From: Gammaproteobacteria bacterium | GTDB lineage: Bacteria; Pseudomonadota; Gammaproteobacteria; 21-64-14 | Length of the DNA: 64,000 nucleotides | Assembly (NCBI GenBank): GCA_027013145.1 | Contig: JALUXX010000016.1 | Location: forward strand, 22,983 to 86,982 | Direction of reading: 5' to 3' | Shown here: piece after piece, positions 13,259 to 51,305 of the stretch | How the letters are laid out: each line of letters starts with the position of its first letter | Position numbering within the stretch: the stretch's first letter is position 1 | Made by a program: the position numbers and the translations under genes | The notes under the pieces: generated by a model | Told to the model about the DNA's origin: nothing | The model's input: only the letters and a program-made list of their open reading frames with translations | The model's database searches: none

Positions 13259-13259
13259 T

Positions 13260-33841: not shown

Positions 33842-33954
33842 CATTTCAATACTGAAATTATTTCGGATCCGTACCCGCGCGGGTCTGTGTTCCCGGCTGC
33901 GGCTTCCGTTCAAACTCTCGTAAATTCAAACAGAAAAGTTCTTTATCCCGGAGT

Positions 33955-33970
33955 TGGCACGTTCGTTGCG
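33955..33970 (+). promoter_or_regulatory. Sigma-54 (RpoN) promoter, -24/-12 elements TGGCAC-N5-TTGCG
   Basis: Perfect match to TGGCAC-N5-TTGC(A/T) with correct GG/GC spacing, ~110 nt upstream of the CDS starting at 34078. A sigma-54 activator is encoded 10 kb downstream. Confidence 0.55.
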
Positions 33971-34077
33971 AACGAAACGCGTGCCGGCGGCCGGCGTGGC
34001 CGCGCGGGTCCGGCCGGACAGAGCGGACAGAGCTTAGACGCGGACTAGGGCTTCGACAGCGATTTCGCGAGGAGACG

Positions 34078-35514
34078 ATGATGGAGACTTGTTCCCGAGG
34101 ACACCGAAGGGGCGTTGCCCGACTCGGCCGGGTCGTGCCGCGGGCGAAAGGCGTCGGCGTAGCGCTCGCCGGCGGCCTGCTGCTTCTGGGCGGGGTAGGA
34201 AACGCCGCGGCCCGCTCCTGGGAGTTGAACGGGCCGGCGTGGCACCTCCCGACACCCGCGCATTCGCGCGCGATGGGGGTGCCCGGGCGGGCGCCCGCGA
34301 GTGGGTTCGCCGGAAGCTGGCAGAACGTGGATCGCAATACGCGCGGTCTCACGCGCGTGGATATCGTGCGCGCCGGTGCGGGTTACCGAGTCCGGGCCTG
34401 GGGCCGCTGTCACCCCCGTGACTGCGACTGGGGGAGCGCACCGGCGCAGATCTACGCCCCGTCGCCGTCGGCACGGCGCGACGTGGCGCTCACGGCGCAG
34501 TTCCGCGAGCCGAGCGGAACGATGACCCTGGTGCTCCATAACCGCGGGAGCCGGCTGAGCGCGGAGGTGTTTCGGGCGTTCGATCCGGCGCACGCCTCCG
34601 GGCGCCGCAATTATCTGATGACCGCGCAACTGACCCGTTCGGCCACCCGGCCGAGCGTCGGCATGGGCGGCGCCGCTCCATCGGGGTCCGCGGGTACGAG
34701 GCCACCGGCCGGCGGGCGTCCCGCCGGCGCGCAGGCGCGCTTCCGGGTCATCGTCACCGGTTTCACCGTGAACCAGCAGACCTGGGACGACGCCCTTAAC
34801 CATGACGGAAAAGGAGACGAGGTGTTCCTGCTCACGCACGTGGCCGAGCTGAGCTCATCCGGGAAGGAGGTGCTCGCCTCGGATGTCCGCTCACGCGTGA
34901 TGGGCGATACCAACGGCTGGAAGGGAAGGGTGCACGCGGGGACGGCATGGACGGGTATCTTCGGCGGTCCGCGCGGCGGGCTGGCGACGGGGGATCAGTA
35001 TCCCAGCACGCGCCCCTGGCAGGTGCGGGGACGGGTCTTCGAAGACCGTGCGCCGGAACTCGTGTGGCAGGGAACACTCCGGAGGGGGGACGGCGGCGTG
35101 CTGATCGTACCGACCATCTGGGAATGGGACGAGGCCGGCGGAGATGCGATCGTCCGCGACTGGGCGGCGCTGGTGCAGAAGCTGGACAAGGCCGCGGGGC
35201 CTCTGATCAACGCCGCCAGCGGCGGGGAGGCGAAGCCGTTCGTCGACGCGGCCGGCGCCACATGGGGCGTGCTGCGCAGCAACGAGTTGGCCAGGGTGCT
35301 CGGGCACGCCGCCACCCGTCCCATCGGCCTGCGCGAGGCGGGCAAGGGTCGTCAGGTGTTCCGGCCGACGATCATCCGGCTCAACTACGACATCGCCGAG
35401 CGCCTGCTGCGCAGCAACTTCGGCAAGGGGCCCGGTGTGCTGGAGGTCCAGTATCAGGATTCCTCGCGCCTGCGCGGGGACTACACGCTGTACGTGAAGG
35501 TGCAGCGCATGTGA
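34078..35514 (+). CDS. Hypothetical secreted protein (478 aa)
   Basis: GAGGAG RBS. N-terminal signal-like hydrophobic segment. High GC3. No recognisable domain. Confidence 0.55.
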   Translation: MMETCSRGHRRGVARLGRVVPRAKGVGVALAGGLLLLGGVGNAAARSWELNGPAWHLPTPAHSRAMGVPGRAPASGFAGSWQNVDRNTRGLTRVDIVRAGAGYRVRAWGRCHPRDCDWGSAPAQIYAPSPSARRDVALTAQFREPSGTMTLVLHNRGSRLSAEVFRAFDPAHASGRRNYLMTAQLTRSATRPSVGMGGAAPSGSAGTRPPAGGRPAGAQARFRVIVTGFTVNQQTWDDALNHDGKGDEVFLLTHVAELSSSGKEVLASDVRSRVMGDTNGWKGRVHAGTAWTGIFGGPRGGLATGDQYPSTRPWQVRGRVFEDRAPELVWQGTLRRGDGGVLIVPTIWEWDEAGGDAIVRDWAALVQKLDKAAGPLINAASGGEAKPFVDAAGATWGVLRSNELARVLGHAATRPIGLREAGKGRQVFRPTIIRLNYDIAERLLRSNFGKGPGVLEVQYQDSSRLRGDYTLYVKVQRM

Positions 35515-35595
35515 CGAGGCCGCCGCCGGCGCCCGCACGGGCGCCGGCGGGCCGACGGCCAATGGGCGGACGGGTCGGTACAAGGGGGGAATTAC

Positions 35596-36021
35596 ATGAG
35601 CATCGGACATCGGATACGGGGTTCGGGAGCGGTCGCCAATTCGCTGCGCGCCGCGCTTTTTGGGGTGCTTCTCGGCAGCGCCGGTGCCGCTTCCGCGGCC
35701 CCGGGCGGGATGGTCGGCCTGGTCTACGACTTCGGGCGCAGTGTGGGCGTGACGATCAAGTTGCTTTCGTCCAATCATCGGCACCGGGCCGTGGGCGAGA
35801 TCGGCGTTTCGTACTTTCCGTTCTCGCGGACGGGGCGTTTCGGCCTCGATGTCGGCGGCGGCTACAACCTGACGAAGTCGTCCGTGACCGTCGGCTGGGA
35901 TTTTCTCGGCAGGACGGTGCAGATCGGCGCCGGTTACGTCAACACGGTGGAGGACCATGCGGCCGCGGCGCCACCGCCCGCGCCCCCGCCACCGATCTTC
36001 TCGAAGCCGACGGTGCAATGA
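35596..36021 (+). CDS. Small hypothetical secreted protein (141 aa)
   Basis: Signal peptide (LFGVLLGSAGAASAAPG), beta-rich Gly/Val composition, Pro-rich tail. Confidence 0.45.
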   Translation: MSIGHRIRGSGAVANSLRAALFGVLLGSAGAASAAPGGMVGLVYDFGRSVGVTIKLLSSNHRHRAVGEIGVSYFPFSRTGRFGLDVGGGYNLTKSSVTVGWDFLGRTVQIGAGYVNTVEDHAAAAPPPAPPPPIFSKPTVQ

Positions 36022-36030
36022 GTCGCCGGG

Positions 36031-36696
36031 GTGGTGGTGGCGGCGCGCCAGGGTCGCGGAGACCGGTGGTCCCGGCACGGAGCGGGGGGGGCGCCGCCGG
36101 CGCGCCCGCTCCGGACGGCGGTGCTCGCGTGGGCCCTTTTCGCCATGGGTCCGGCGTCGTGGGCGATGGGCGCAGGGGGGCCGCGGTGGACCATCGGCAG
36201 GGCGCAGATCGTGGGTTCTCCCCGGGAGACGGTGGGGCGCGCCGGGCTCTATCTCGAGTTGAGTCTGCGCAATACCGGTGCGTTGCGGCGCGCTCCGGTC
36301 CGGATATTCGGCCGCTGGAGGCGCGTGAACCCGCATCCCCAGCGAAGGACCGCACGCAATGGTGCGGCACAGGCGTGGCGGGGGACGCCCGGTGCAACGG
36401 CCTGGCGCCCGCGTCCGCCGGCGTCCGGCGGCGGGCGCCGTTGGCTTCCCGGTCCGGGGCCGACGGAAGAGGAACGCCACGCGGAGGAAACCGGGCAGGC
36501 ACGGGGCACGCTGCCGGCGGGAATGCGCCTGTTGGGGCGCTACAGATCGGATCTGAGCCTGGGCTACACGGCAATACTGCGCGTTCCGCTGGCCGCGTTG
36601 GGCCCGGCCCCCGGATCGGCTCCGGTGGTCGACGTCGCGGTGATGACGGGAGTGGTGGTCACCGATCGGCGCTTCGTGGGAGTCGGAATGGAGTGA
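36031..36696 (+). CDS. Possible hypothetical protein (weak call; start undefined)
   Basis: Strong GC3 bias throughout the frame, but no clear start/RBS and odd composition. The overlapping minus-strand ORFs look like shadows. Confidence 0.3.
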   Translation: MVVAARQGRGDRWSRHGAGGAPPARPLRTAVLAWALFAMGPASWAMGAGGPRWTIGRAQIVGSPRETVGRAGLYLELSLRNTGALRRAPVRIFGRWRRVNPHPQRRTARNGAAQAWRGTPGATAWRPRPPASGGGRRWLPGPGPTEEERHAEETGQARGTLPAGMRLLGRYRSDLSLGYTAILRVPLAALGPAPGSAPVVDVAVMTGVVVTDRRFVGVGME

Positions 36697-36766
36697 GGTG
36701 CGCGGGAGAGGCGCTTCGGGAGACGGTCAACGCGGTTCTGTCATGAGTCTGACAGTGGAGGCGGAT

Positions 36767-37495
36767 ATGTCTTTTCACAGGGTCTGTATCGTCTGGCGGG
36801 GGGCGGTTGCGGCCGTCATGGTGTTCGGCATGGCCGGTTGCGCGACCGCGAGCCGACCGACGGTCGACAACTCGTACACCAGTCACGAACTGGCAAGCCT
36901 GCCGCCGCTGCGGGCGCGGCCGAAGACGGTGACCATCTATCGGTTCACCACCAGTGTCGACGAGGTGTCGGCGCGGGCGGCCACCGACATGTTCACGACG
37001 GCGCTGATCAAGTCTCACCGGTTCGCCGTACTCGAGCGACAGCGGCTCAGTGAGGGTGTGTTGCGCGAGAAACAGATGAACTCCCAGGGCATGACCACCG
37101 GAAACGTCGGTCGCGCCACCCTGGCCGGCGCCGACTACATCTTTTACGGGACGGTCAGCGAAGCCAACGCGGATGCGTCGGATACGGGCGTGGGCGCGAC
37201 TCTCCGCGGGCTCGGTGTGGAGGGCAGCGGGCAGAAGGCGGTGATCGCGGTCGATGTGCGGGTCGTCGATGCGCATACCGGCGCCGTTCTCGACGCGGTC
37301 GACGTGCGCCGCCCGGTGACGCAGGGTGGTGTCGGCGTATCCGGGGTCGGGGCGTTCGTCCAGAGCTTCACGCACACCGATCTCCAGGGGGCCGACGTCT
37401 CGCTCCACAAGGCGCACAAGGAGGGTGTGGACCGCGCGCTGCGCGAGTGCATCGAAGAGGCCGTCTATCAGCTCGCGAGGCGGTTCTCCAATTGA
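36767..37495 (+). CDS. CsgG-family outer-membrane lipoprotein (curli-type secretion channel family)
   Basis: GGAGG RBS. Lipobox (VFGMAGC). CsgG-like segments (TIYRFTTSVDEV, FTTALIKSHRFAVLERQRL, ADYIFYGTVSE, AVIAVDVRVVDAHTGAVL). Confidence 0.65.
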   Translation: MSFHRVCIVWRGAVAAVMVFGMAGCATASRPTVDNSYTSHELASLPPLRARPKTVTIYRFTTSVDEVSARAATDMFTTALIKSHRFAVLERQRLSEGVLREKQMNSQGMTTGNVGRATLAGADYIFYGTVSEANADASDTGVGATLRGLGVEGSGQKAVIAVDVRVVDAHTGAVLDAVDVRRPVTQGGVGVSGVGAFVQSFTHTDLQGADVSLHKAHKEGVDRALRECIEEAVYQLARRFSN

Positions 37496-37500
37496 TCGCC

Positions 37501-38685
37501 ATGAACGTCCGATGGGGTCTTTGGGTCGGCCTGCTGGTCTGCGCCCCGCTCGCGGCGAATACGGTCCGGGCCGGCGGTTGGCGGGTGACGGAGCTGCGTC
37601 TCAATACGCCGACGATGGAGGGCCAGTGGTACGCGTCGGATTCCCCCCTGGCGCGGGGTCTCGGGATCCGGGCGGGTTATATGGCGTTGTATACGATCGA
37701 GGTGTTGCCGGGTCTCCAATATACCCTGCAGCTGCGTGTGCCGCGCGCAGCGGAGCGGGTCCGGGTGTACGCCTACGATCGCTGGCCGCTGTCGGCCGGA
37801 GCACGCCGGTTCGCGTTGCCGAGCGGACCGGTCACCTGGCCGCCGCGTGCACGACGGATCTCGTACCGCTGGCGGATCGGGATCTCCCCGCGGAGCACCG
37901 GGACACTGTTGTACCTCATGGTGTGGTTTCCGCGCCCCTGGCCGTCGGGTCCGGTGACGGCCCCGGTCCTGCTCGTGCGTTCGCCGCCCATCGTTCCGAC
38001 CCACCGCATCGGACGCGGCATAACCTATCTGGACGGCCCGCGCGATCTGCTGCTCTCCGGCGAGTCCGGTGCGGTCTCCTATACGCTGCTGCCGGCCGCG
38101 CCGGCCGTGCCGGTCCGGTCCGCCCGGGTGTGGACGGCCCCGCGCGATCTGGTCATCAATGGGCGTTTCAGCGCGGGTCTGCGAGGCTGGGTGCCGCGGA
38201 CCGGCGCCGACGGTCGCGGCCTGGAGCCGACCATTGGATCGCAGGGACTGCGTCTTGCGCCGGGCACCGGAGTGCGCTCGCAACTCGATGCGGACGTCGC
38301 CCGTGCACGGACGCTGGTTCTTTGGGCCGACGTGCGTCTCGGGCGGGCGACGAGCGGCGATGGCGGGCGGACGACCGGTGACCCCGGACTGACGATCGCG
38401 CTGTGCTTGCGCGACGAGGCGGGAAGACGCCACTGCGGTCGACATTCGGATCGGATCGAGTTCTTCAGGCAGGGCAAGGGAAACGCGGCGACGGCCGTCG
38501 CCGCGGGCCGTATCCGGCGCCTGATCCCGGCGGGAACCTGGTACCGGTTCCAGATCGATCTCGCCGGCGGTCCGTCGCATCCCGCGCACATCGACTCGAT
38601 CGATCTGTCGGCGGGTACGGCCGGGACGGCGTGGGTGCGCGAGGTGCATCTCATACGAGGGGGGACGAGTGATGCGGGTGATTGA
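37501..38685 (+). CDS. Hypothetical secreted protein (394 aa)
   Basis: Signal peptide (MNVRWGLWVGLLVCAPLAANTVRA). No recognisable domain. Confidence 0.5.
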   Translation: MNVRWGLWVGLLVCAPLAANTVRAGGWRVTELRLNTPTMEGQWYASDSPLARGLGIRAGYMALYTIEVLPGLQYTLQLRVPRAAERVRVYAYDRWPLSAGARRFALPSGPVTWPPRARRISYRWRIGISPRSTGTLLYLMVWFPRPWPSGPVTAPVLLVRSPPIVPTHRIGRGITYLDGPRDLLLSGESGAVSYTLLPAAPAVPVRSARVWTAPRDLVINGRFSAGLRGWVPRTGADGRGLEPTIGSQGLRLAPGTGVRSQLDADVARARTLVLWADVRLGRATSGDGGRTTGDPGLTIALCLRDEAGRRHCGRHSDRIEFFRQGKGNAATAVAAGRIRRLIPAGTWYRFQIDLAGGPSHPAHIDSIDLSAGTAGTAWVREVHLIRGGTSDAGD

Positions 38686-39730
38686 AACCTGGAGCACTGC
38701 GGTTCTCGTGCTGGTGTTGGCGGTGGCCGCGGACCCGTTGTGTGCGGGCCCGCTCGATCGCGGCCCGATGGCGCCGCGCGTCAATCCGGCGACCAATGAC
38801 ATGCTGCGTGTGCCCGGCGTGGTCGGTATGGACCGGCAGGGTGCGCTCGCGACGCTCGAGCAGGCCGGCCTGAACCCGCGGATCCACGAGCTGCGCAAGG
38901 TCACGAAACGCTATGCCGGCCGCGAGGGTACGGTGGTGCGCCAGTTACCGCTTCCGGGCGGTATGGCGATGTTGGGGTCCTCGGTGAGCATCACAGTGTA
39001 TGACCCCGGCGGCAGTGAGGGCGGCGTTGGTGCGGGCGGCCCCCCCGCTCAGCCGCCGTCTTATCCCGACAACGGCGGGCCCGGCTACGATGGCTCCGAC
39101 TACGGCGGTTACGACACCGGCGGGGCGCCGCCGTACGGGTCCGGGTCCGGCGGCGTCGATAGCGGTGGCGCCGGCGATGCGGGAGCGGTTGGTGGTGGAG
39201 ACGCGGGACCGCCGTTGCCGGGTGGATGGAGCGGTCCGAGCGCGCCGGCGGCCGGGGCCGGTGAAGGTCCCGCCCCCGCAGACGCGGGCGGGGCACCGGC
39301 CCCTGGACCCGCCACCGGCAACCTCCCGCTGAAGGCCCCCGCACCGTTGCCGGTACCCTCATCCCCGCCGTCGCAACCCCTCCCGGCCGGTCCGCTTCCG
39401 GTGCCCAAGCCGGTCGCGGTGCCGTCGACGCCCGCGCCCGCGTTGCACGCGCCGATCCCCGAGCCGAAGGCGCCGGTGGGCGGAACCGGCGCACGCCCGA
39501 AGCCTTCCCTGCGGCCGCCGCCGGAGCGCCGGTTGCCGCCTCCGCGACCGCAGCCCCCGGCGCCGGTCGTGACGCCCGCGCCGGTTCCGGTATCGCCGCA
39601 TATTCCGAAGCCCGTTGTGCCGATCCCGCCGGACGGGTCCGGCACGGGTGCTGCGCCGGTTCCACGGCCGGCCTTGCCGAGACGGAAAGAACCCCGCCGC
39701 CTGTCGGCCCCGCCCGAAGGCGTTCCGTAG
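38672..39730 (+). CDS. Secreted protein with one PASTA-like domain and a ~230-aa Pro/Gly/Ala-rich tail
   Basis: Signal peptide. PASTA-like module (VPGVVGMDRQGALATLEQAGLNPRIHELRK...GTVVRQLPLPGGMAMLGSSVSITV) followed by low-complexity PxxP-type repeats. Confidence 0.5.
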   Translation: MRVIETWSTAVLVLVLAVAADPLCAGPLDRGPMAPRVNPATNDMLRVPGVVGMDRQGALATLEQAGLNPRIHELRKVTKRYAGREGTVVRQLPLPGGMAMLGSSVSITVYDPGGSEGGVGAGGPPAQPPSYPDNGGPGYDGSDYGGYDTGGAPPYGSGSGGVDSGGAGDAGAVGGGDAGPPLPGGWSGPSAPAAGAGEGPAPADAGGAPAPGPATGNLPLKAPAPLPVPSSPPSQPLPAGPLPVPKPVAVPSTPAPALHAPIPEPKAPVGGTGARPKPSLRPPPERRLPPPRPQPPAPVVTPAPVPVSPHIPKPVVPIPPDGSGTGAAPVPRPALPRRKEPRRLSAPPEGVP

Positions 39731-39784
39731 CCGGGCGGCGTGGGTATCCACGGGGTCGTAGACAACTGCAAAGAGGGGATCGTC

Positions 39785-40516
39785 ATGGAAAACAAGCAGC
39801 ACGGCGTCACCGCAACTTCAAAGGGCAACCGGCCGCACGCTTCCGCGCCGACCGGGATCGTTGCGACCTTCGTCGCCGTCGTAACCCGGCCGGCGGAGTT
39901 CTTTTCCGCAATGCCCCGGACGGGCGGCTACGGTCAACCGCTGATCTTCATGGTCGTCATGGGCGTCGCGGGCGGGCTCATACGTGCCGTGCTCGGCATG
40001 CTCGGTCTCCTCACCGCGGGATCCACGGCCACGGCGCTGACCGGAATCATCCTCGCGCCGGTCCTGATCCTGATCTTCGGCTTCATCGGTGCAGCGATCC
40101 TGTTCATCATCTGGAAGATGATGGGTTCGCAGCGGGACTTCGAGACCGCATACCGGTGCGTTGCATACGGCAGCGCGATTTCGCCTTTGACGCAATTCCT
40201 TATGCTGATACCCTATCTGGGCATCGTCTTGGCCCTCGGATGGTGGGCGTTCATCCTCGTGGCCGCCAGCACCCAGGTTCACGATGTGGGGCGGAGTGTC
40301 GCGATCACAGTCTTCGGCGGGATCGCCGCGGTGCTGGCCCTGGCGGGTATCGGTATGCAGTTCACGGCTCAGCGGATGGTGAATTCGCTGACCAGGACGC
40401 AGCAGCAACTGCAACTCGATCAGACCCGGGATCCGGCCAAGGCCGCACAGGATCTTGGCAAGCTGCTCCAGCAGATGCAGAAGGCGTCCGGGCAGGGAGG
40501 CAGCGCGGGGCGCTGA
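39785..40516 (+). CDS. Yip1-domain (DUF1282-like) integral membrane protein
   Basis: GAGGGG RBS. Five TM helices in the Yip1-like arrangement. Conserved Gly-rich TM segments. Confidence 0.55.
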   Translation: MENKQHGVTATSKGNRPHASAPTGIVATFVAVVTRPAEFFSAMPRTGGYGQPLIFMVVMGVAGGLIRAVLGMLGLLTAGSTATALTGIILAPVLILIFGFIGAAILFIIWKMMGSQRDFETAYRCVAYGSAISPLTQFLMLIPYLGIVLALGWWAFILVAASTQVHDVGRSVAITVFGGIAAVLALAGIGMQFTAQRMVNSLTRTQQQLQLDQTRDPAKAAQDLGKLLQQMQKASGQGGSAGR

Positions 40517-40852
40517 CCCTCCACGCGGCCGAGCCGCAGCTTTCCGTTTCGTGTTCGACACGGCCGTATGCCGCGCGCCCGGCGCCGACCGCGCGGGGAC
40601 ACGTCCTTCATCTCTCGGCATCCCCCAGCGGGCATATGGGCGTTCCCGGCTGCGGCCCGTCCGGCACCGGCGCTATAATTCGGTCAAGGGCGAGGGATCC
40701 CGTCGGCGCCGGCCGTGCCGCGCTCGCGGCGCGACCTGGCGGCGGGATGCGACGGGGACGTTCGGCAGGGACGCGCGCGGCGCGTGGTCGGCGCCCGATG
40801 TGCCGGTCGGTACCCGCCCGCAGATGGTTTTCGGCCGAGTCGGGGGGCTCGC

Positions 40853-43800
40853 ATGGAACAGGGGGGTGATCCGCAGGGGGACGTCTTCTCCGGTCGTCTG
40901 TCGTTACCGCGGCAGCCGTGCCCGGTGTACCGGCGCGGGCGCCTACATCGGCGCATCGGGGAGGCCCTCGAAGCGGGCGCGTCGGTGTGGGTTTATGGGC
41001 AGCCGGGGGCCGGCAAGACGACCCTGGTTGCGAGCTATCTCGAGGCAGAACCGAACCCGGCGTTCTGGTACACGCTGACGTCGGAGGACGCGGATCCGCC
41101 GACCTTCTTCCGCCACCTGGGTTCGCTCCTCGGGGATCGAGCGGGGTCCGCGGGGCTGCCGCAATGGGCCCCGAACCTCGGCTACGACCCGCTGGCGTTC
41201 GCGCGTAACTTCTTCGCCGTCTTCTGCGAGTCCCTCCCCGCGAAGGCCGTCCTCGTTCTCGACGATCACCACGAGGTCGAGGGGCGCGGGGCGATGGACA
41301 CGCTCGTTCGCGCCCTCCTGGAGGCTTTCGCCGGACATCGGTCCTGCGTCGTGATCAGTCGGAGCCGGCCACCGGAAACGCTGGTGCGAGCGATGGCCCG
41401 CGGCGCGTTGGAGTGCGTCGACGGCGAGGATTTGCGTTTCAGCGACGAGGAGGCGCGGGGCATCGTTGAGAAACGGGTGCCCGCGCCCTTGCGTGGGGCC
41501 ATCGACGTCAAAGGCGTGAATCGCCGTGCACGCGGGTGGGCTTTGGGCCTGGTCCTGTTGGTGCAACAGGCCCTGTCGGGCGGCGCGGCGGCGGACGCGG
41601 CGGGACCCGCACCGGATACGATCCTGGGTTACTTCGCGGGCGAGTTCGCGAGCCGTGAAAGGGACGACGATCTCGATCTGCTGATCACTGCATCGTTGTT
41701 TTCATACCTGACCTACGGGATCGCGCGCAAGATCGCGGGGCCGGCCGGCGGTGCCGCGTGGATCGACGATCTATGTCGGAAGAACCTCTTCGTCACACGT
41801 TACCAGTCCGGGTCGGGTGAAACGGCTTTCCGGCTCCATCCCTTGTTTCGGGACTACCTGCACTGGGAGGCCGCGCGGCGGCTGAGTGAGCCGGAGTTGA
41901 ACCGGCGCCGTGTTCTGGCCGCCGCAACGCTTGCGGAATCCGGCCGTCGGGAGGAGGCGGTGGGGTTGTATCTCGCGGGGCGCGCGTGGGAGCAGGCGGA
42001 GGCCGAATTGCTCGACCTCGCGTGGGTACGTTACCAGTCGGGAGAGATCGAGACCCTGAGACACTGGCTCGGCGCCCTTCCCCAGGAGCGCGTCCGGCGC
42101 AGCGGATGGCTGTCCCTGTGGGCGGGCGCCTGCGCGGCGGCGGCCGAGGTCGGCGCAGGACAGGAGGCGCTGCAGCGCGCGTACGCCCTCCTGCGCCCGG
42201 AGGCGGACGCGACGGGGACGTTGCTGGCCTGGTGCTTCATGGTCGAAGGGCAGGTGCTCGGGTGGAGCGATCCCCGGGACCTCGATGCGCTGATCGCGGA
42301 TTTCGCCGACCTGGAGCCGATGCTGGGGCGGGTCGAGCGCCCCCTCGCCGGGCGGGCGATGCTGGCGATGTTCGCGGCGGTCGCGGTCCGCGCCCCCTAT
42401 CCGCCCCGGGCGGACGCGTGGGCGCAACGGGTCGAAGCAGGGTTGCGGGAAGCGGACGAGGAGATCGCGCGCGCGTTCGGGACCGCGCAGTTGGCTTCGT
42501 TCTACGGTTTCAACCGCGGCCGTTTCGAGAAGGCCGCGGCGGTCGTGAACGAACTCGCCGCACGGGCGGGCAGCGAGGAATCCAACCCCGTCGCGCAAAT
42601 CATCTACCTGGCCTATCAAGCGGTGGTCGAACTGTGGGCGCAGGGGGAGCCGGCCCGAAGTCTGGAGACGGTGCGCAAGGGAATCGCGGCGGCGGAGGCG
42701 AGCGGGATACGGTTGCTCGACTTCCTACTCCAGTCCACCGGTGCCTGGTGTGCCCTGGCGGCGGGCGATTACGACGCTGCGCGTCACCACCTCGGCGCGA
42801 TGGGGTCCGAATTGAATCGGCGCGCCTGGTTGAACCGCTGCGTGTTTCATGACACTTCGGCGCTCCTCGCCTGTCACTCGGGCGACTTGGCGGCGGCGCG
42901 TGGGGGTTCGGAGCAAAGTCTCGAATTCGCCCGGCGCAGCGGGATGCCCTTTGCGGAAGCGGCCTGTCTGATGACGGCCTCGAGGGTGCGGAGTCTGTCG
43001 GGAGAATGGGAGGAGGCCGTGCGGCTCAGGGAGGCGGCCGCCGCGATCGGTCGCAGTATGGACAACCCGTTCATCCTCGCCCAACTGGCATGGTTCGAGT
43101 CCTCGGATTACCTGGAGCGCGGGCGGGAGGACGCGGCGGTCGTCGCGTTGCGGAAGGGCTTTTCGGCGGGCCGGCTCGCCGGTTTGCATGGAAACCTCTG
43201 GCTGCGCCGCGAGGAGCTGGCGCGTCTCTGCGCGTTCGCGCTGCGCCACGAGATCGAGACCGACTACGTACGGCGGCGCATCGCCCGCAACCGCCTGCGC
43301 GCGCCGCAGGCCGAGGCCGGTCCGGAATGGCCGTTTATGCTACGGGTACGTGTACTCGGTGGACTGAAGGTCGAGGTGCTGGGCTCGGATCGATATCGGA
43401 CGCTGCGCCTCAAGGGACGCCCGGCACAACTTCTCGAGGCCCTTCTGTGGCTCGGGCCGGAGTCGGTCAGTCAGGAGCGCCTGAGCGACTGCCTGTGGCC
43501 CGATGCGGACGGGGATGCGGCGCGTCGCAACATCGACGTGACCGCGCACCGTCTCCGCAAGGCACTGGGTGACGATCGCCTGTTGGCGTTCGAGCAAGGG
43601 CGGGTGGGCCTGGCGCCGGGGCTGGCGTGGAGCGATCTCGGCGGGCTCGAGGCGACGCGACAGGCGCTGGTCGCCGAGCTTCAAGGACAGCCGGAGGCGT
43701 CCCGGGTGGGGGCCCTGCAGCAGCGCTTGCTCGACTGGGCCGACGCGCTCGCCCGCACCACCCCGGAATCCGTGCCCGCGGCGCTTGCCGGGGCATGTGC

Positions 43801-44092
43801 GGCGCGGCGCAGCGAATTCGTCTCCACCCTCGACCGCCTGGCCGCGTATTGGCAAAAACAGGAGGTCTGGCGCAAGGAGGTGGAGGCGTTGCAGGCACGG
43901 GTTCGCCTCGAGCCGGCGGCCGAGCGTCCCCATCTGCGGATGATGCGTATCTACGTGGCACAGGGCCTGCACGGGGAGGCATTGGGTGCCTACGAGGCCT
44001 GCCGGCGAAACCTGGAGCGTAGCGTCGGAATCCCGCCGGGGCCGGAAATCGAGGCCGCGCGGGAAGAAATCTTGCGAATTACAAATAGTTGA
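40853..44092 (+). CDS. Large ATPase transcriptional regulator: N-terminal P-loop NTPase, central helical/TPR-like region, C-terminal OmpR-type winged-helix DNA-binding domain plus BTAD (SARP-like domains in inverted order)
   Basis: Walker A (VYGQPGAGKTTLV). Near the C-terminus, an OmpR/SARP-type DNA-binding segment (VLGGLKVEVLGSDRYRTLRLKGRPAQLLEALLWLGPESVSQERLSDCLW) is followed by a BTAD-like segment (RMMRIYVAQGLHGEALGAYEACRRNLERSVGIPPGPEI). Confidence 0.65.
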   Translation: MEQGGDPQGDVFSGRLSLPRQPCPVYRRGRLHRRIGEALEAGASVWVYGQPGAGKTTLVASYLEAEPNPAFWYTLTSEDADPPTFFRHLGSLLGDRAGSAGLPQWAPNLGYDPLAFARNFFAVFCESLPAKAVLVLDDHHEVEGRGAMDTLVRALLEAFAGHRSCVVISRSRPPETLVRAMARGALECVDGEDLRFSDEEARGIVEKRVPAPLRGAIDVKGVNRRARGWALGLVLLVQQALSGGAAADAAGPAPDTILGYFAGEFASRERDDDLDLLITASLFSYLTYGIARKIAGPAGGAAWIDDLCRKNLFVTRYQSGSGETAFRLHPLFRDYLHWEAARRLSEPELNRRRVLAAATLAESGRREEAVGLYLAGRAWEQAEAELLDLAWVRYQSGEIETLRHWLGALPQERVRRSGWLSLWAGACAAAAEVGAGQEALQRAYALLRPEADATGTLLAWCFMVEGQVLGWSDPRDLDALIADFADLEPMLGRVERPLAGRAMLAMFAAVAVRAPYPPRADAWAQRVEAGLREADEEIARAFGTAQLASFYGFNRGRFEKAAAVVNELAARAGSEESNPVAQIIYLAYQAVVELWAQGEPARSLETVRKGIAAAEASGIRLLDFLLQSTGAWCALAAGDYDAARHHLGAMGSELNRRAWLNRCVFHDTSALLACHSGDLAAARGGSEQSLEFARRSGMPFAEAACLMTASRVRSLSGEWEEAVRLREAAAAIGRSMDNPFILAQLAWFESSDYLERGREDAAVVALRKGFSAGRLAGLHGNLWLRREELARLCAFALRHEIETDYVRRRIARNRLRAPQAEAGPEWPFMLRVRVLGGLKVEVLGSDRYRTLRLKGRPAQLLEALLWLGPESVSQERLSDCLWPDADGDAARRNIDVTAHRLRKALGDDRLLAFEQGRVGLAPGLAWSDLGGLEATRQALVAELQGQPEASRVGALQQRLLDWADALARTTPESVPAALAGACAARRSEFVSTLDRLAAYWQKQEVWRKEVEALQARVRLEPAAERPHLRMMRIYVAQGLHGEALGAYEACRRNLERSVGIPPGPEIEAAREEILRITNS

Positions 44093-44136
44093 AATGATGC
44101 GCCGCTTGCGGTTCCGCAACGCGCGCATGGCCGCGC

Positions 44137-46152
44137 TTGCGAATCTGTAAGCCGGATGTAAGCCCAGCCGTTTCATTATCGTTCCCGACATCGGAACCAT
44201 CGTCGGGAGGGGGGGTGGCCAGCAGCGCCACGACATGGACCACGCCGGGCGGGGCGGAGGCGCCGGGGGCGCCCCGCTACGGGCTGCAGGTCAAGCTCGG
44301 CCTCAGCGTGCTCGTCTCGACGCTGCTATCGGCGTTCATGATCGCCGGCAGCGTGTACCAGTTCGGTCGCGACCGGGTCGACCGTGCCTATGTCGCCGAG
44401 TCGGAGGCGATGGTGCAGGCGGCGAGCCTCGCGTTTTCCCAGGCGCTCGGGCGCCGGGATTTCGTGCTGCTCGACGCCCTGGTCCACGAGCTTCAGAGCC
44501 GCCGTAGACTTCGCATCCAGCAGGCCTACGTCCTCGATCCCACCGGGCGGGTCGTCGCCCACTCGATCGGCTCCGAGTACGGCAAGCACTACCCGGTCCC
44601 TGCGCTGTTGCGGGCGCGGCATCCCTCGCGCCTGTCGCAGGTCGTTTCCTCGACCGGGCCGACCTTCAAGGTCGTGAGCCTGCTGCAAACCCAGGGCCAT
44701 ACCCTCGGCGCCCTCGTGGTTCGTTTCGACGCCGCCGAGCTGGAGCAACGGCTGCGCTCGGAGGTCGTCTGGGTGCTCGAGACCACGCTCCCCATTCTGC
44801 TGTTGTCGGGAATCATCCTGCTGCTGCTCGGGCGCGGAATGACGCGGCGCCTTCAGACCCTTCGCACCCGCATCCGCGCGGTCGGGCGCGGCGAACGACC
44901 CGAACCCGTCCCGGTCCTGGGGAACGACGAGGTCGCGCAGCTTTCCCGGGACTTCAATCAGATGCAGAAAGACCTTGAGGCCCTCCAAGAAAAGGACCGC
45001 GATGCGACGGAGACCATCCGGGGGCTCAATCGCGAACTCACGACCCAGCTTCGCACCGTCGAGCGCCTGAAGGAACAGCTCGCGGAGGAGAATTCCGACC
45101 TGCGCGAGCAGCTCAGGAGCATGGCCGGGGACGCCGAATTCCTCGGGGCATCCGCTCCCGTGCGAAAGCTTCTGGAACAGGCGGCACAGACCGCGGGGCT
45201 CCCGATCAACGTCCTGATCACGGGGGAAAGCGGCACGGGCAAGGAACTCCTCGCGAGCTATATCCACCGGCGCAGCGGGAGGGAGTCGGGACCGTTCGTG
45301 AAGATCAACTGCGCCGCGCTGCCGGTCAATCTGGTCGAGAGCGAACTGTTCGGCCATGAAAAAGGCGCTTTTACCGGTGCGGTTTCGCAGCGGGTGGGAA
45401 AGTTCCAACTCGCCCACGGCGGGACGCTGCTGCTCGACGAGGTCGGGGAGTTGCCTCCCGAGTCGCAGTCCAAACTGCTGCGTGCCCTGCAGCAGGGAGA
45501 GATTCAGCGGGTGGGCGGCAACAAGCCGATCGTGGTCGACGTTCGCGTGATCGCAGCGACGAACCGCGATCTGGCCGAGGACGTGAGGCGGGGCACCTTC
45601 CGGGAGGATCTCTATTACCGGCTCAAGGTCATCGAGCTTCGCTGTCCCGCGCTGCGCGAGCGCATCGATGATCTGCCCATCCTCGCGCAGCATTTCATCG
45701 AACAGTTCGGCCGAAAGCTCGGGCGCAGTGTCGTCGGGATCTCGCCCAGCGCATTGCGCCGGCTCGGCCGCTACCACTGGCCCGGGAACGTCCGCGAGTT
45801 GGAGCACGCCGTGGCCCGTGCGGTCGCCCTGAGCGGGACCCGGGTCCTCGGGCCGGAAGACTTCGATTTCCTGCCCGTCTCCGGGCCGAGCGGCGGCGGC
45901 CGCGAGGCCGGCGGCGGCGGAATCGAAGCGCTCGCCCGCGCGTGCGGGCTCCGTGAGGAGAATCTGGGGGAGGCGCCGTGGGCGCGCATCATGGCGGCCT
46001 GCGAGCGCGTCTGTCTGACCGCCGCCCTCGATCGAAACCGAAATCAAAAAGACGCCGCGGCGATGCTGGGCATCACGCCGACCAAGATCCATCGCCTGAT
46101 CCGGAAACACCGCCTCAAGGGCGAGCCGCAGGGATCGGCCCCGGGAGGCTGA
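44137..46152 (+). CDS. Membrane-anchored sigma-54-dependent transcriptional activator (bEBP): periplasmic sensor between two TM helices, HAMP, AAA+ sigma-54 interaction domain, Fis-type HTH; no receiver domain
   Basis: TM1 (LSVLVSTLLSAFMIAGSVY), ~170-aa extracytoplasmic region, TM2 (VLETTLPILLLSGIILLLLG), HAMP plus coiled coil. AAA+ motifs: Walker A (GESGTGKE), the sigma-54 contact motif GAFTGA (EKGAFTGAVS), Walker B (LLLDEVGEL) and RVIAATNRDL. C-terminal HTH (QKDAAAMLGITPTKIHRLIRK). An alternative GTG start near 44215 follows GGAGGG. Confidence 0.8.
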   Translation: MRICKPDVSPAVSLSFPTSEPSSGGGVASSATTWTTPGGAEAPGAPRYGLQVKLGLSVLVSTLLSAFMIAGSVYQFGRDRVDRAYVAESEAMVQAASLAFSQALGRRDFVLLDALVHELQSRRRLRIQQAYVLDPTGRVVAHSIGSEYGKHYPVPALLRARHPSRLSQVVSSTGPTFKVVSLLQTQGHTLGALVVRFDAAELEQRLRSEVVWVLETTLPILLLSGIILLLLGRGMTRRLQTLRTRIRAVGRGERPEPVPVLGNDEVAQLSRDFNQMQKDLEALQEKDRDATETIRGLNRELTTQLRTVERLKEQLAEENSDLREQLRSMAGDAEFLGASAPVRKLLEQAAQTAGLPINVLITGESGTGKELLASYIHRRSGRESGPFVKINCAALPVNLVESELFGHEKGAFTGAVSQRVGKFQLAHGGTLLLDEVGELPPESQSKLLRALQQGEIQRVGGNKPIVVDVRVIAATNRDLAEDVRRGTFREDLYYRLKVIELRCPALRERIDDLPILAQHFIEQFGRKLGRSVVGISPSALRRLGRYHWPGNVRELEHAVARAVALSGTRVLGPEDFDFLPVSGPSGGGREAGGGGIEALARACGLREENLGEAPWARIMAACERVCLTAALDRNRNQKDAAAMLGITPTKIHRLIRKHRLKGEPQGSAPGG

Positions 46153-46396
46153 GGTCGTCGCTTCTCGGGTGGGCTGCCGTTCACCGCACGACCGGCGGTT
46201 CGACGGACGGGCGCCGCCCGAGTCCGGCTCGTCGTTTGCGACCCGTCGCGGCGGCCGGCGTTTCCGCAGCCGGCCGCGAATCCGGCGAACGGGTCTTGTA
46301 AAAATGAATTTCAATATCGAAACGCTTTCGGTGCCGGAGACGCGGCCACCCACACTGATAAACACCAACTTACTGTTGTTCAGAGGTTTTTCTTTG

Positions 46397-46412
46397 TGGC
46401 CCGGCTCTTGCT
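46397..46412 (+). promoter_or_regulatory. Candidate sigma-54 promoter TGGCCC-N5-TTGCT upstream of the OmpA-fusion gene
   Basis: GG and GC dinucleotides at the canonical 12-nt spacing, ~185 nt upstream of ATG 46595. The -24 element is imperfect (TGGCCC instead of TGGCAC). Confidence 0.4.
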
Positions 46413-46594: not shown

Positions 46595-47545
46595 ATGACT
46601 CCACATCCGTTGCGAAAAACCGTCGGTTTGCTGGGCTTGCTCTGGGCCCTTGCCCTCGGTCCCGGTGCCGCGCAGGCCGCCGTCCAGACCTTCATCAAGC
46701 CGTATCCCGGCTCCACCGTACACAGCACCTGGACGCACAAGTTTGATCGGGTGATGCTGCCGGCGGGCAAGGTGCATTTCGATAACAAGACGCAAACCGA
46801 TGTTGTGGCCAAAACGATCGAGGTCAAAGGGCGGCTGACCTACGTGGATTACGAAACGCCGGAAGACCGCGGCGGCTTCGAGGTGCTGGAGAACTATAAG
46901 CAGGGGCTTGCCCGGGCGGGCTTCAAGATCCTGTTTTCCTGTTATGCCGCGGCCTGCAGCAAGGGAGGCGATGTCGGCTATGTCCTCAACCGGGACCAGT
47001 TCGGAGACGACCCGCCACAGGTCGGCAGCGACCAGACCGGCTACCTGACCGCGAAGCTGGCGCGTCCCGAGGGTGACGTCTACGCCACCGTGATTGTGGA
47101 TGGGAACAATCACGCCACGGACGTGGCGATCGTCGAGGCCAAACCCATGCAGACGGGCATGGTGAAGGTCGACGCCAAGGCCTTGCTCAACGACATCGAC
47201 CGCACCGGCCACGCCGCCATCTACGGCATTTACTTCGACACCAACAAGGCCACGGTCAAGCCCGCGTCGAAACAGGCGCTGGTCGCGATCGCCAAGCTGC
47301 TCAAGACGCGCCCGAAACTCAAGCTCTACGTGGTCGGCCACACCGACAACGTCGGCACCTTCGACTACAACATGGGCCTGTCCAAACGACGTGCCGAAGC
47401 AGTGGTGGCCGTGCTGGTCAAGCAATACGGCATTGCCTCCGGTCGCCTGCGCGCTGCCGGCGTGGGCCCGCTGGCGCCGGTGCTGGCCAACACCACCGAG
47501 GCGGGGCGCGCCAGGAACCGGCGCGTGGAACTGGTGGCGCAATGA
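46595..47545 (+). CDS. OmpA-family protein: N-terminal DUF4892-like domain carrying a YPGS motif, fused to a C-terminal OmpA/MotB peptidoglycan-binding domain
   Basis: Signal peptide. N-terminal domain (FIKPYPGSTVHSTW...). C-terminal OmpA-like motifs (IYFDTNKATVKP, YVVGHTDNVGTFDYNMGLSKRRAEAV, RNRRVELV). Confidence 0.75.
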   Translation: MTPHPLRKTVGLLGLLWALALGPGAAQAAVQTFIKPYPGSTVHSTWTHKFDRVMLPAGKVHFDNKTQTDVVAKTIEVKGRLTYVDYETPEDRGGFEVLENYKQGLARAGFKILFSCYAAACSKGGDVGYVLNRDQFGDDPPQVGSDQTGYLTAKLARPEGDVYATVIVDGNNHATDVAIVEAKPMQTGMVKVDAKALLNDIDRTGHAAIYGIYFDTNKATVKPASKQALVAIAKLLKTRPKLKLYVVGHTDNVGTFDYNMGLSKRRAEAVVAVLVKQYGIASGRLRAAGVGPLAPVLANTTEAGRARNRRVELVAQ

Positions 47546-47592
47546 GCGGTTCAAAAAACATCAATGTATCAGAAGTCTTGGGGTACTACATC

Positions 47593-49317: not shown

Positions 49318-49382
49318 GCCTGGGTGACGATCGAAAGGAACGGCGGACACGCGTGGCCGGCGAAAGACATAGGAGAGGCGTC

Positions 49383-51212: not shown

Positions 51213-51305
51213 GGATGGACAGGTGTCCCGGCGGCGATAGAACGACTGCCGGGGAGATCCCTCACAGTACCAACAAACGTCGATATTCATGAAGGAGCAT
51301 CCACA

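What the first reader, a model, noticed from the sequence alone, without database searches (positions are those of the whole stretch)
33955..46412. Sigma-54 regulon inside the segment: a textbook -24/-12 promoter, a second candidate, and a receiver-less, membrane-embedded sigma-54 activator with a periplasmic sensor
The sequence at 33955-33970 is TGGCAC-gttcg-TTGCG, a perfect RpoN promoter in front of the first island gene. The sequence at 46397-46412, TGGCCC-ggctc-TTGCT, precedes the OmpA-fusion gene and the paralog run.

The activator at 44137-46152 carries the diagnostic GAFTGA motif and a full AAA+ sigma-54 module plus an HTH. Its N-terminus, however, is two TM helices around a ~170-aa extracytoplasmic domain followed by HAMP, with no phospho-receiver domain.

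One-component, membrane-anchored bEBPs that sense directly in the periplasm are uncommon. Here one is embedded among about 20 genes for envelope or secreted proteins that it plausibly controls.
Basis: partly seen in the sequence, partly recalled or inferred. Interest (0 to 1): 0.65.

Follow-up and report, generated by a model that had tools for sequence, protein, structure and literature searches.

The report
Membrane-bound sigma-54 activator and its regulon
A transcription activator that sits in the cell membrane, probably senses something outside the cytoplasm and appears to switch on three nearby sigma-54 promoters driving about 18 secreted or envelope proteins; the same unstudied module recurs in several bacterial phyla.

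Summary

**Promoters.** P1 (33955-33969, TGGCAC-N5-TTGC) and P2 (46397-46411, TGGCCC-N5-TTGC) are real matches. There is a third, P3 (56771-56785, TGGCAT-N5-TTGC).

**Upstream box.** Each promoter lies 89-112 bp downstream of the same box, ATTTCAAnAnnGAAAnnnTTnCGG. This box occurs three times in 64 kb against 0.02 expected. Its core is a 16-bp dyad, ATTTCA-N4-TGAAAT.

**Activator.** The protein most likely starts at GTG 44215 (645 aa), not TTG 44137. Its order is TM1, a periplasmic PDC/Cache fold of about 137 aa, TM2, HAMP, coiled coil, a complete sigma-54 AAA+ module with GAFTGA, and a Fis-type HTH. It has no receiver domain.

**Conservation.** Loci were picked in three independent ways: by the DNA motif, by the sensor domain and by the target protein. 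All three recover the same module in Chromatiales, Thermodesulfobacteriota and Nitrospirota MAGs: this activator, tandem dyads, a -24/-12 promoter, a small secreted Ig-like protein, and often a CsgG-like lipoprotein.

**Upstream control.** A conserved TGTAAG-N5-TGTAAG repeat in front of the activator gene suggests control by the adjacent STAND/SARP-like regulator.

**Status.** The family is rare, and I found no description of it. DNA binding, rpoN dependence and the signal are inferred.

The parts
33843..33875 (+). Enhancer (UAS) 1. Dyad ATTTCAATACTGAAAT followed by a degenerate second dyad, ATTTCGGATCCGTACC.
   Evidence: Zero mismatches to ATTTCA-N4-TGAAAT. From UAS start to the end of the -12 element is 127 bp.
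33955..33970 (+). Sigma-54 promoter P1, TGGCAC-GTTCG-TTGCG.
   Evidence: It lies about 108 bp upstream of ATG 34078, which is preceded by GAGGAG.
34078..40516 (+). P1 operon, seven tightly spaced genes:
- 478-aa secreted protein
- 141-aa Gly-rich secreted protein
- small Ig-like secreted protein, 36031-36696 (the family's signature target)
- CsgG-like lipoprotein, 36698-37495
- 412-aa secreted protein
- PASTA plus Pro-rich protein
- Yip1 membrane protein
40715..44092 (+). STAND NTPase (AAA_16, MalT-like) with TPR, an OmpR-type winged helix (Trans_reg_C) and BTAD. It is conserved immediately upstream of the activator in type-A loci.
44146..44179 (+). Conserved promoter footprint of the activator gene. 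It is a direct repeat TGTAAG-N5-TGTAAG (44146-44162) plus a -10-like CATTAT (44174-44179). The -10-like hexamer overlaps a single dyad-like GTTTCATTATCG.
   Evidence: The repeat occurs exactly once in the window and once in each of L001 and L031-L035, always between the regulator gene and the activator gene.
44215..46152 (+). Membrane-bound sigma-54 activator (bEBP), 645 aa:
- TM1, about residues 27-48
- periplasmic PDC/sCache, about 49-185
- TM2, about 186-208
- HAMP, then coiled coil to about 305
- AAA+ module (Walker A at 337, GAFTGA at 384)
- HTH_8
46308..46340 (+). Enhancer (UAS) 2, ATTTCAATATCGAAAC followed by CTTTCGGTGCCGGAGA.
   Evidence: From UAS start to the end of -12 is 104 bp, two helical turns shorter than at P1 and P3.
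46397..46412 (+). Sigma-54 promoter P2, TGGCCC-GGCTC-TTGCT.
46595..56184 (+). P2 operon, about ten genes, all with signal peptides:
- OmpA-C fusion, 46595-47545
- YPGS-motif paralogs: 47542, 48099, 51306, 51797
- Gly-rich 609-aa protein
- DUF3617 protein
- 910-aa HEAT-repeat protein
56661..56693 (+). Enhancer (UAS) 3, ATTTCAAAACCGAAAT followed by GTTACGGATCCGCATG.
   Evidence: From UAS start to the end of -12 is 125 bp.
56771..56786 (+). Sigma-54 promoter P3, TGGCAT-GGAGA-TTGCC.
57043..59523 (+). P3 gene. A beta-propeller-repeat plus Ig/cadherin-like surface protein with a GlyGly-CTERM-like tail. The likely start is ATG 57082.

Best explanation
The window carries a self-contained sigma-54 regulatory module.

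**Proposed mechanism**
1. A one-component activator is anchored in the inner membrane by two helices. Between them lies a periplasmic PDC/Cache domain.
2. A signal perceived there passes through HAMP and a long coiled coil to the AAA+ module. The signal is unknown; an envelope or extracellular cue is most likely.
3. By analogy with DctD and NtrC1, the coiled-coil dimer is proposed to hold the ATPase off until signalling lets it form the active ring.
4. Through its Fis-type HTH, the activator binds tandem 16-bp dyads (ATTTCA-N4-TGAAAT, centres 17 bp apart). These begin about 104-127 bp upstream of the -12 element.
5. It contacts E-sigma54 by DNA looping and opens three promoters: P1 (33955), P2 (46397) and P3 (56771).
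6. These promoters drive about 18 same-strand genes for secreted or envelope proteins. They include the family's signature small Ig-like protein and a CsgG-like lipoprotein.
7. The activator gene itself appears to be driven by a SARP/OmpR-type promoter (TGTAAG-N5-TGTAAG plus CATTAT). The adjacent STAND/SARP-like regulator probably binds it, which would give a two-tier cascade.

**Shown:** the motifs, the domain architecture, the predicted fold, and conservation with adjacency.

**Inferred:** binding, rpoN dependence, the signal, the coiled-coil control mechanism and the cascade.
For: **Within the window**
- The box ATTTCAAnAnnGAAAnnnTTnCGG occurs three times, all on the + strand and all intergenic. 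The expectation is 0.02.
- Each box lies 89-112 bp upstream of a TGGC-N7-TTGC element.

**Route 1: loci chosen by DNA motif**
- A scan of 185,579 genomes for box plus promoter returned 27 loci.
- Seven of them encode a full-length orthologue of this activator (51-58% identity, covering residues about 20-645). In each, the gene ends just upstream of the box and a homologue of 36031-36696 follows the promoter.

**Route 2: loci chosen by the sensor protein**
- The same dyads and promoter appear in L033, L036, L037 and L042.

**Route 3: loci chosen by the small target protein**
- A HAMP plus Sigma54_activat gene lies immediately upstream in 4 of 4 contigs, and CsgG lies downstream.

**Spacing**
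- The distance from UAS start to -12 end is 122-128 bp in 11 of 15 sites. The others are 101, 104 and 212 bp.

**The activator protein**
- Pfam domains and motifs are complete.
- The AlphaFold model (pLDDT 77) matches the periplasmic sensors of WalK, CitA, DctB, KinD and DcuS.
- The nearest non-family relatives of the input module are sCache_3_2-HAMP histidine kinases and diguanylate cyclases.

**The cascade**
- The TGTAAG repeat is found once per locus in all six independent type-A loci, always between the regulator gene and the activator gene.
Against: - No experiment exists. Transcription start sites, rpoN dependence and DNA binding are untested.
- rpoN itself is not in the window.
- The 24-nt box was derived from the three sites themselves, so its within-window statistic is post hoc. 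The validation comes from the other genomes.
- P2 departs from consensus at one -24 position (TGGCCC), and its first dyad has two mismatches.
- The second dyad is degenerate at all three window sites (5-7 mismatches).
- In the closest relatives, L031 and L032, the 478-aa gene follows the activator with no sigma-54 promoter between them. Regulon wiring therefore differs between genomes.
- No IHF consensus was found in the spacers.
- How a hexameric AAA+ ring assembles from membrane-tethered dimers is not addressed by any data here.
Confidence: 0.8

Rival explanations
1. The activator does not work at the membrane. Signal-dependent proteolysis (regulated intramembrane or juxtamembrane cleavage) releases a soluble AAA+-HTH fragment, which then behaves like PspF or a truncated NtrC.
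For: - Hexamer assembly and DNA looping are easier for a soluble protein.
- A roughly 50-residue coiled-coil linker separates HAMP from AAA+ and could be a cleavage region.
- Some membrane-tethered transcription factors are released in this way (general knowledge).
Against: - No protease gene is conserved in the module.
- HAMP is a reversible conformational transmitter and is not typical of cleavage-activated factors.
- The HAMP and coiled-coil region aligns without large gaps in the one family member for which it was compared, P0001, and HAMP recurs in the other family members. This suits conformational signalling.
Confidence: 0.12
2. The dyads are bound by a different factor, such as the neighbouring STAND/SARP-like regulator, a nucleoid protein or another bEBP. 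The membrane activator would then control something else.
For: - The STAND/SARP-like regulator is adjacent in the window and in L001 and L031-L033.
- The same dyad plus a sigma-54 promoter also occurs next to unrelated bEBPs in Ureibacillus, Lysinibacillus and Polaromonas.
Against: - In type-B loci (L008, L009, L011, L015, L021, L022, L036, L037, L042, L049) no STAND/SARP gene is nearby. The dyads nevertheless lie directly between this activator and its target.
- Inverted repeats suit a Fis-type HTH dimer. Winged-helix SARP proteins bind direct repeats, and exactly such a repeat is found elsewhere, at 44146.
Confidence: 0.05
3. Only P1 is a functional sigma-54 promoter. P2 and/or P3 are chance matches, and their operons are read from other promoters.
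For: - One-mismatch matches to the promoter consensus occur at chance frequency in this GC-rich window.
- P2 has TGGCCC.
- The 5' leaders would be long, about 180 nt for P2 and 285-310 nt for P3.
Against: - Both carry the same 24-nt box at helically phased distances, 104 and 125 bp against 127 bp at P1.
- The sigma-70 consensus scan found no match between 46000 and 62000.
- In L033, homologues of the P2-operon paralogues are preceded by a dyad plus TGGCACGGTGGTTGC.
Confidence: 0.1

Closest known systems
NtrC/DctD/NtrC1/ZraR-type bacterial enhancer-binding proteins
   Same: - The central sigma-54 AAA+ module has GAFTGA and the C terminus is a Fis-type HTH.
- Inverted-repeat enhancers lie about 100-130 bp upstream of -24/-12 promoters.
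- A helical linker precedes AAA+, as in DctD and NtrC1.
   Different: - There is no receiver domain and no partner kinase.
- The input is an integral-membrane TM-PDC-TM-HAMP module, so signal perception and transcription activation sit in one membrane protein.
CitA, DcuS, DctB, WalK and TspS sensor histidine kinases
   Same: - The input architecture is the same: TM1, periplasmic PDC/sCache, TM2, HAMP.
- They are the best Foldseek matches.
- The nearest sequence relatives of the input module are sCache_3_2-HAMP kinases and diguanylate cyclases.
   Different: The output is a sigma-54 AAA+ ATPase plus HTH instead of HisKA/HATPase_c. The phosphorelay step is bypassed.
ToxR, CadC and TcpP membrane-bound one-component activators
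   Same: The concept is shared: a DNA-binding transcription activator is tethered in the inner membrane and senses in the periplasm. The activator gene lies close to its targets.
   Different: - Those proteins have an N-terminal cytoplasmic winged helix, one TM helix and a C-terminal periplasmic sensor.
- They act on sigma-70 promoters without ATP hydrolysis or ring assembly.
ZraPSR and PspF/PspA envelope-stress sigma-54 systems
   Same: Sigma-54 control of envelope-related genes. The conserved first target is a small exported protein, as ZraP is for ZraSR.
   Different: - The sensor and the activator are fused.
- The target is an unannotated Ig-like protein, not a ZraP/CpxP-type or PspA-type protein.
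- No feedback has been shown.
Curli CsgG and holdfast HfaB secretion lipoproteins
   Same: Gene 36698-37495 matches Pfam CsgG (96 bits) and has a lipobox. It lies in an operon with small secreted proteins.
   Different: - No CsgA, CsgB, CsgE or CsgF, and no HfaA or HfaD, were detected.
- The NCBIfam equivalog scores are far below cut-off.
- The partners are PASTA, Yip1, PEGA or CARDB proteins.

Membership tests
Sigma-54 enhancer-binding protein (AAA+ activator) | Sigma54_activat AAA+ domain with Walker A and B, the GAFTGA loop, the arginine finger and sensor II | tested here: met
   PF00158 scores 235.9 bits against a cut-off of 20.2. Motifs found: GESGTGKE at 337, GAFTGA at 384, LLLDE at 405, FREDLYYRL at 462, GNVREL at 524.
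Sigma-54 enhancer-binding protein (AAA+ activator) | C-terminal DNA-binding HTH with cognate upstream enhancer sites | tested here: met
   HTH_8 scores 25.6 bits against a cut-off of 22. Tandem dyads lie 89-112 bp upstream of three -24/-12 elements and are conserved next to orthologues. Physical binding was not tested.
Sigma-54 enhancer-binding protein (AAA+ activator) | ATP-dependent activation of E-sigma54 open-complex formation | not testable with these tools
   This needs in vitro transcription or genetics.
NtrC-type two-component response regulator | N-terminal phospho-receiver (Response_reg) domain | tested here: not met
   No PF00072 hit at E <= 0.01. The N terminus is TM-PDC-TM-HAMP.
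Sigma-54 (-24/-12) promoter | GG and GC dinucleotides exactly 10 bp apart within TGGCAC-N5-TTGCW, intergenic and co-oriented with the gene | tested here: met
   P1 scores 10/10, P2 9/10 and P3 9/10 against TGGCAC-N5-TTGC.
Sigma-54 (-24/-12) promoter | Transcription starts about 12 nt downstream of GC and depends on rpoN | not testable with these tools
   No transcript data are available.
PDC / single-Cache extracytoplasmic sensor | Long N-terminal helix plus a five-stranded antiparallel sheet between two TM helices | tested here: met
   AlphaFold model (pLDDT 77) with helices 23-79 and 83-95 and five strands 101-172. Foldseek hits to CitA, DctB, KinD, WalK and DcuS at E 1e-4 to 5e-9.
PDC / single-Cache extracytoplasmic sensor | Pfam sCache_3_2 sequence signature | tested here: inconclusive
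   17.6 bits against a cut-off of 28.4, E 0.004. The database pre-computation lists PF17203 for family members.
HAMP linker | Pfam HAMP directly after TM2 | tested here: met
   44.1 bits against a cut-off of 25.
ToxR/CadC-type membrane one-component regulators | N-terminal cytoplasmic OmpR-type winged helix, a single TM helix and a C-terminal periplasmic sensor | tested here: not met
   The topology and domains differ. This is an analogy only.
Curli secretion system | CsgG together with CsgA, CsgB, CsgE and CsgF | tested here: not met
   The CsgG domain is present (96.4 bits). No other curli families appear among the Pfam or NCBIfam hits of the neighbours. The CsgG equivalog scores 42 bits against a cut-off of 505.
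SARP-type regulator and promoter (neighbour gene 40715-44092) | OmpR-type winged helix plus BTAD, with target direct repeats at 11-bp periodicity just upstream of a -10 element | tested here: met
   Trans_reg_C scores 27.0 against 26.2 and BTAD 39.6 against 22.1. TGTAAG-N5-TGTAAG plus CATTAT is conserved in six independent loci. Binding was not tested.

The most novel reading that the evidence does not exclude
This would be the founding example of a cross-phylum family of sigma-54 activators that work while embedded in the membrane.
- Three HAMP-coupled dimers would have to assemble an AAA+ ring at the inner face of the membrane and loop enhancer DNA to E-sigma54. The phosphorelay would be short-circuited.
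- Co-translational export of the target proteins could help hold the locus at the membrane.
- The family's dedicated output would be a previously undescribed CsgG-dependent surface or envelope apparatus.
- The apparatus's first product, a small Ig-like exported protein with no Pfam family, might feed back on the periplasmic sensor.
Probability: 0.3. Interest if true: 0.75.

Novelty: new variant of a known kind. Interest (0 to 1): 0.62.

Why it matters
**Mechanism.** Sigma-54 activators are textbook soluble, ring-forming ATPases fed by kinases or cytoplasmic ligands. A version that is itself a transmembrane receptor raises a concrete question. How does a ring that acts by DNA looping assemble from membrane-tethered, HAMP-coupled dimers?

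**Practical use.** It would also offer a one-protein route from an extracellular signal to a tightly off/on promoter, which is attractive for biosensor design.

**Ready for experiment.** The work here supplies what is needed to test it:
- the likely true start codon
- domain boundaries
- a defined 16-bp operator, with natural variants in other genomes
- three promoters
- a conserved minimal module (activator, UAS, promoter, small gene) suited to reconstitution in a heterologous host; this matters because all known members come from uncultured bacteria

**The target genes.** The analysis also flags an unannotated, conserved CsgG-associated envelope gene set as the physiological output.

Tried and rejected
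1. **Promoter consensus as sole evidence.** One-mismatch hits are at chance level, so the case rests on the shared box and on comparative data.
2. **TGGCACAGGGCCTGC at 43956 as an autoregulatory sigma-54 promoter.** It lies inside the regulator gene, has CTGC at -12 and has no dyad upstream. Rejected.
3. **TTG 44137 as the start codon.** Rejected, because conserved promoter elements lie downstream of it and an RBS precedes GTG 44215.
4. **IHF sites in the spacers.** None within one mismatch of WATCAANNNNTTR. The spacers are merely AT-rich, GC 0.48-0.53 against 0.68 for the window.
5. **Sigma-70 promoter and terminator scans.** Both were at background level and did not help define operons.
6. 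**Riboswitches or other RNAs in the long leaders.** Rfam found only a tRNA.
7. **Function of the small target protein from its fold.** Only generic Ig/Fn3-like matches with E > 0.01.
8. **Pfam and NCBIfam on the 478-, 141-, 221- and 412-aa proteins and on the paralogues.** No families were found.
9. **Literature on HAMP or membrane-bound bEBPs.** Nothing describing this architecture was found in the searchable library. The two classic reviews, Bush and Dixon 2012 and Studholme and Dixon 2003, were not available. Absence from the literature is therefore not proven.
10. **A fourth dyad at 50506.** It lies inside a coding region with no promoter downstream and was treated as chance.

Full report
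**1. What is in the sequence**

The window is a GC-rich (68%) piece of a 203-kb metagenome contig, ENA ERZ27262636 k141_299917. Its left part carries an alpha-carboxysome/RuBisCO/DabA cluster and methylcitrate-cycle genes. The host is therefore probably an autotrophic proteobacterium. The closest DNA-motif relatives are Chromatiales MAGs.

At 33955-33969 the + strand reads TGGCAC-GTTCG-TTGC. At 46397-46411 it reads TGGCCC-GGCTC-TTGC. Both sites are intergenic and point at + strand genes.

The promoter consensus alone is not statistically remarkable here:
- TGGCAC-N5-TTGC with up to one mismatch gives 6 hits against 4.2 expected.
- TGGC-N7-TTGC gives 6 hits against 2.3 expected.

**2. The shared enhancer and a third promoter**

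Aligning the two upstream regions exposed a common box. The pattern ATTTCAAnAnnGAAAnnnTTnCGG occurs three times in the window, at 33843, 46308 and 56661. All three are on the + strand and intergenic, against 0.02 expected.

The third box precedes a third -24/-12 element, TGGCAT-GGAGA-TTGC at 56771-56785. This lies upstream of the 826-aa surface-protein gene.

The core of the box is a 16-bp inverted repeat, ATTTCA-N4-TGAAAT. A second, weaker dyad follows one base later.

The distance from box start to the end of -12 is 127 bp at P1, 104 bp at P2 and 125 bp at P3. P2 is therefore two helical turns shorter.

The three regulatory regions are AT-rich, GC 0.48-0.53 against 0.68 for the window. No IHF consensus is present.

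**3. The activator**

Pfam finds HAMP, Sigma54_activat, AAA_lid_14 and HTH_8. It finds no receiver domain and only a sub-threshold sCache_3_2 match. NCBIfam places the core nearest NifA and NorR, below every equivalog cut-off.

All catalytic and sigma-54-contact motifs are present. Two hydrophobic segments, about residues 27-48 and 186-208, flank about 137 residues. Basic residues lie on the cytoplasmic sides.

An AlphaFold model of the N-terminal 309 residues has pLDDT 77. It shows a long helix, a short helix, a five-stranded sheet, a long helix running through TM2 and HAMP, and a roughly 70-residue helix leading into the AAA+ domain. Foldseek matches the periplasmic PDC/Cache sensors of WalK, CitA, DctB, KinD and DcuS.

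The start codon is most likely GTG 44215:
- It is preceded by GGGAGG.
- The metagenome gene caller chose it.
- A conserved promoter footprint lies between TTG 44137 and GTG 44215.

**4. Comparative evidence from three independent routes**

*Route 1, by DNA motif.* I scanned one genome for each of 185,579 species for box plus promoter and obtained 27 loci.
- Seven loci encode a full-length orthologue of this activator, sensor included, at 51-58% identity. Three are Thermodesulfobacteriota MAG loci, three are Chromatiales MAG loci and one is a Gammaproteobacteria MAG locus.
- In each, the gene ends just upstream of the box. A homologue of the window's 36031-36696 product follows the promoter.

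*Route 2, by protein.* I scanned JGI metagenomes for the sensor domain and obtained 16 loci.
- Those with enough flank show the same dyads and a -24/-12 element: L036, L037, L041 (the same contig as L008), L042, and L033 on the opposite strand.

*Route 3, by target.* A profile of the small protein found 61 clusters. All are 'hypothetical' and none has a Pfam family.
- In 4 of 4 contigs inspected, a HAMP plus Sigma54_activat gene lies immediately upstream and a CsgG-family gene lies downstream. One of these contigs is from a Nitrospirota MAG.
- The dyads and promoter are again present.

Across 15 sites the distance from UAS start to -12 end is 122-128 bp in 11. The others are 101, 104 and 212 bp.

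In several relatives the second dyad is also near-perfect. In L021, for example, the sequence is ATTTCAAAAATGAAAT-A-ATTTCAGAAATGAAAT. This is the arrangement expected for two HTH dimers nucleating a ring.

In L001 the corresponding position holds a different palindrome, ATTGCGGAATCGCAAT. This hints at co-evolution of operator and regulator. It could not be checked, because that contig ends inside the activator gene.

**5. The regulon**

P1 heads seven tightly packed genes, 34078-40516:
- a 478-aa secreted protein
- a Gly-rich 141-aa secreted protein
- the small Ig-like protein
- a CsgG-family lipoprotein with a lipobox
- a 412-aa secreted protein
- a PASTA plus proline-rich protein
- a Yip1 membrane protein

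P2 heads about ten genes, 46595-56184:
- an OmpA-C fusion
- several paralogues sharing a YPGS motif
- a Gly-rich protein
- a DUF3617 protein
- a HEAT-repeat protein

P3 heads a beta-propeller/Ig-like protein with a GlyGly-CTERM-like tail.

Nearly every product begins with a signal peptide. Homologues of P1-operon and P2-operon genes sit in one operon in L001. The two sets therefore belong together functionally.

The small target protein is modelled as a seven-stranded Ig-like sandwich (pLDDT 76). Only generic structural neighbours were found.

The minimal conserved module in the Chromatiales and Gammaproteobacteria loci (L008, L009, L011, L015) is the activator, the UAS, the promoter and this small gene. 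A short ORF follows, which in L008 is a 158-aa signal-peptide protein; then comes an unrelated gene of about 980 aa.

**6. An upstream tier**

In the window and in L001 and L031-L035, the activator gene is preceded by a 1,070-1,125-aa STAND NTPase. This protein carries TPR repeats and a C-terminal OmpR-type winged helix plus BTAD.

The short intergenic gap contains an invariant TGTAAG-N5-TGTAAG direct repeat with 11-bp periodicity. A -10-like hexamer follows 11 nt later: CATTAT, CATTCT, CATCAT or CAAAAT depending on the locus. The rest of the gap has diverged.

The repeat occurs exactly once in the window and once in each of those six loci. Direct repeats with this periodicity next to a -10 element are what SARP/OmpR-type activators use (general knowledge).

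I infer a cascade: STAND/SARP regulator, then activator gene, then P1, P2 and P3. The -10-like hexamer overlaps a single dyad-like GTTTCATTATCG, which could allow autoregulation. That is speculative.

**7. Rarity and prior knowledge**

A profile of the sensor and HAMP region was run against 1.84 billion cluster representatives.
- It found 6 proteins at E < 1e-30 and 30 at E < 1e-10.
- Beyond the family, the hits sampled with Pfam are sCache_3_2-HAMP histidine kinases and diguanylate cyclases. Of the listed hits outside the family, only P0045 and the fragment P0130 carry a sigma-54 AAA+ domain.

A search with the HAMP-AAA+ junction found HAMP in only 4 of the top 120 sigma-54 activators. All four are family members.

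Published surveys list no HAMP input domain and report few or no transmembrane inputs. They cover 431 activators in Clostridiales (PMC6615313) and 37 in Desulfovibrio vulgaris (PMC4641369). Full-text searches found no description of a HAMP-containing or membrane-anchored bEBP. The two main reviews could not be read, so prior mention cannot be excluded.

**8. Mechanism and uncertainty**

The best-supported reading is a one-component, membrane-integrated enhancer-binding protein. It would bind the tandem dyads and activate the three sigma-54 promoters in response to a periplasmic or envelope cue.

Control through the HAMP and coiled-coil linker is proposed by analogy with the DctD and NtrC1 linker. 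It is not shown.

The alternatives are:
- release of the activator by proteolysis
- another protein binding the dyads
- P2 or P3 being non-functional

These are weighed in the rivals section. None is favoured by the data.

**9. Verdict**

I classify this as a new variant of a known kind. The AAA+/HTH output and the -24/-12 logic are standard. Three things are not described in anything I could find: the transmembrane Cache-HAMP input, its defined operator, and its conserved CsgG-associated target set.

Noticed in passing
window 60496-60572 (-): A tRNA-Arg(CCT) gene lies just beyond the last gene of the envelope-protein segment. The 46-53 kb stretch also has lower GC (0.60-0.63) than the flanks (0.68-0.75). 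This fits the segment being a horizontally acquired island inserted next to a tRNA gene.
   Followed up: partly
window 40715-44092 (+): The large regulator has its STAND NTPase and TPR at the N terminus and its OmpR-type winged helix plus BTAD at the C terminus. From memory, AfsR-like SARP-STAND proteins have the opposite order. I did not check this against the literature.
   Followed up: no
window 59440-59523 (C terminus of gene 57043-59523): The tail GGGGGLGPWMLLGLLGLLPWRLRRRVSRRV looks like a GlyGly-CTERM (rhombosortase) sorting signal. No rhombosortase gene was looked for.
   Followed up: no
L010 5050-5152 and L023 5316-5418 (Ureibacillus, Lysinibacillus); L014 5321-5447 (Polaromonas MAG): The same ATTTCAAAAATGAAAT dyad plus a TGGCAC-N5-TTGC promoter lies beside unrelated sigma-54 activators that match the window protein only in the AAA+ region (37-51% identity). 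This operator type may therefore be shared by other Fis-HTH activators.
   Followed up: partly
L008 and L015 (both from Chromatiales MAG JALUTW, contigs 24 and 40): One MAG carries two copies of the activator, UAS and small-protein module (54% and 58% identity to the window protein). This is either a paralogous pair or a mixed bin.
   Followed up: no
L002 (contig end) and L005 (contig start), both from Thermodesulfobacteriota MAG JBHHYT: The activator gene is split across two contigs. L001 and L040 also end inside this gene. Assemblies seem to break in the conserved AAA+ region, which may make the family look rarer and shorter in protein databases than it really is.
   Followed up: partly
L031 5865-5880, L032 5893-5908, window 44168-44183: A single dyad-like element (GTTTCATTCTTGAAAT in L031) overlaps the -10-like hexamer of the activator's own promoter. 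This could mean negative autoregulation, or it may simply reflect conservation of the -10 region.
   Followed up: partly
window 2659-17137 (+): An alpha-carboxysome-type locus: form I RuBisCO large subunit, CsoSCA carbonic anhydrase, and a DabA/DabB-like inorganic-carbon pump. This marks the host as a CO2-fixing chemo- or photoautotroph.
   Followed up: partly
window 56185-56660: The gap before P3 is unusually long, about 860-900 bp in total. The 475 bp upstream of the UAS have no assigned feature. They contain a dyad-like fragment, GCAATATTGAA, near 56398.
   Followed up: no
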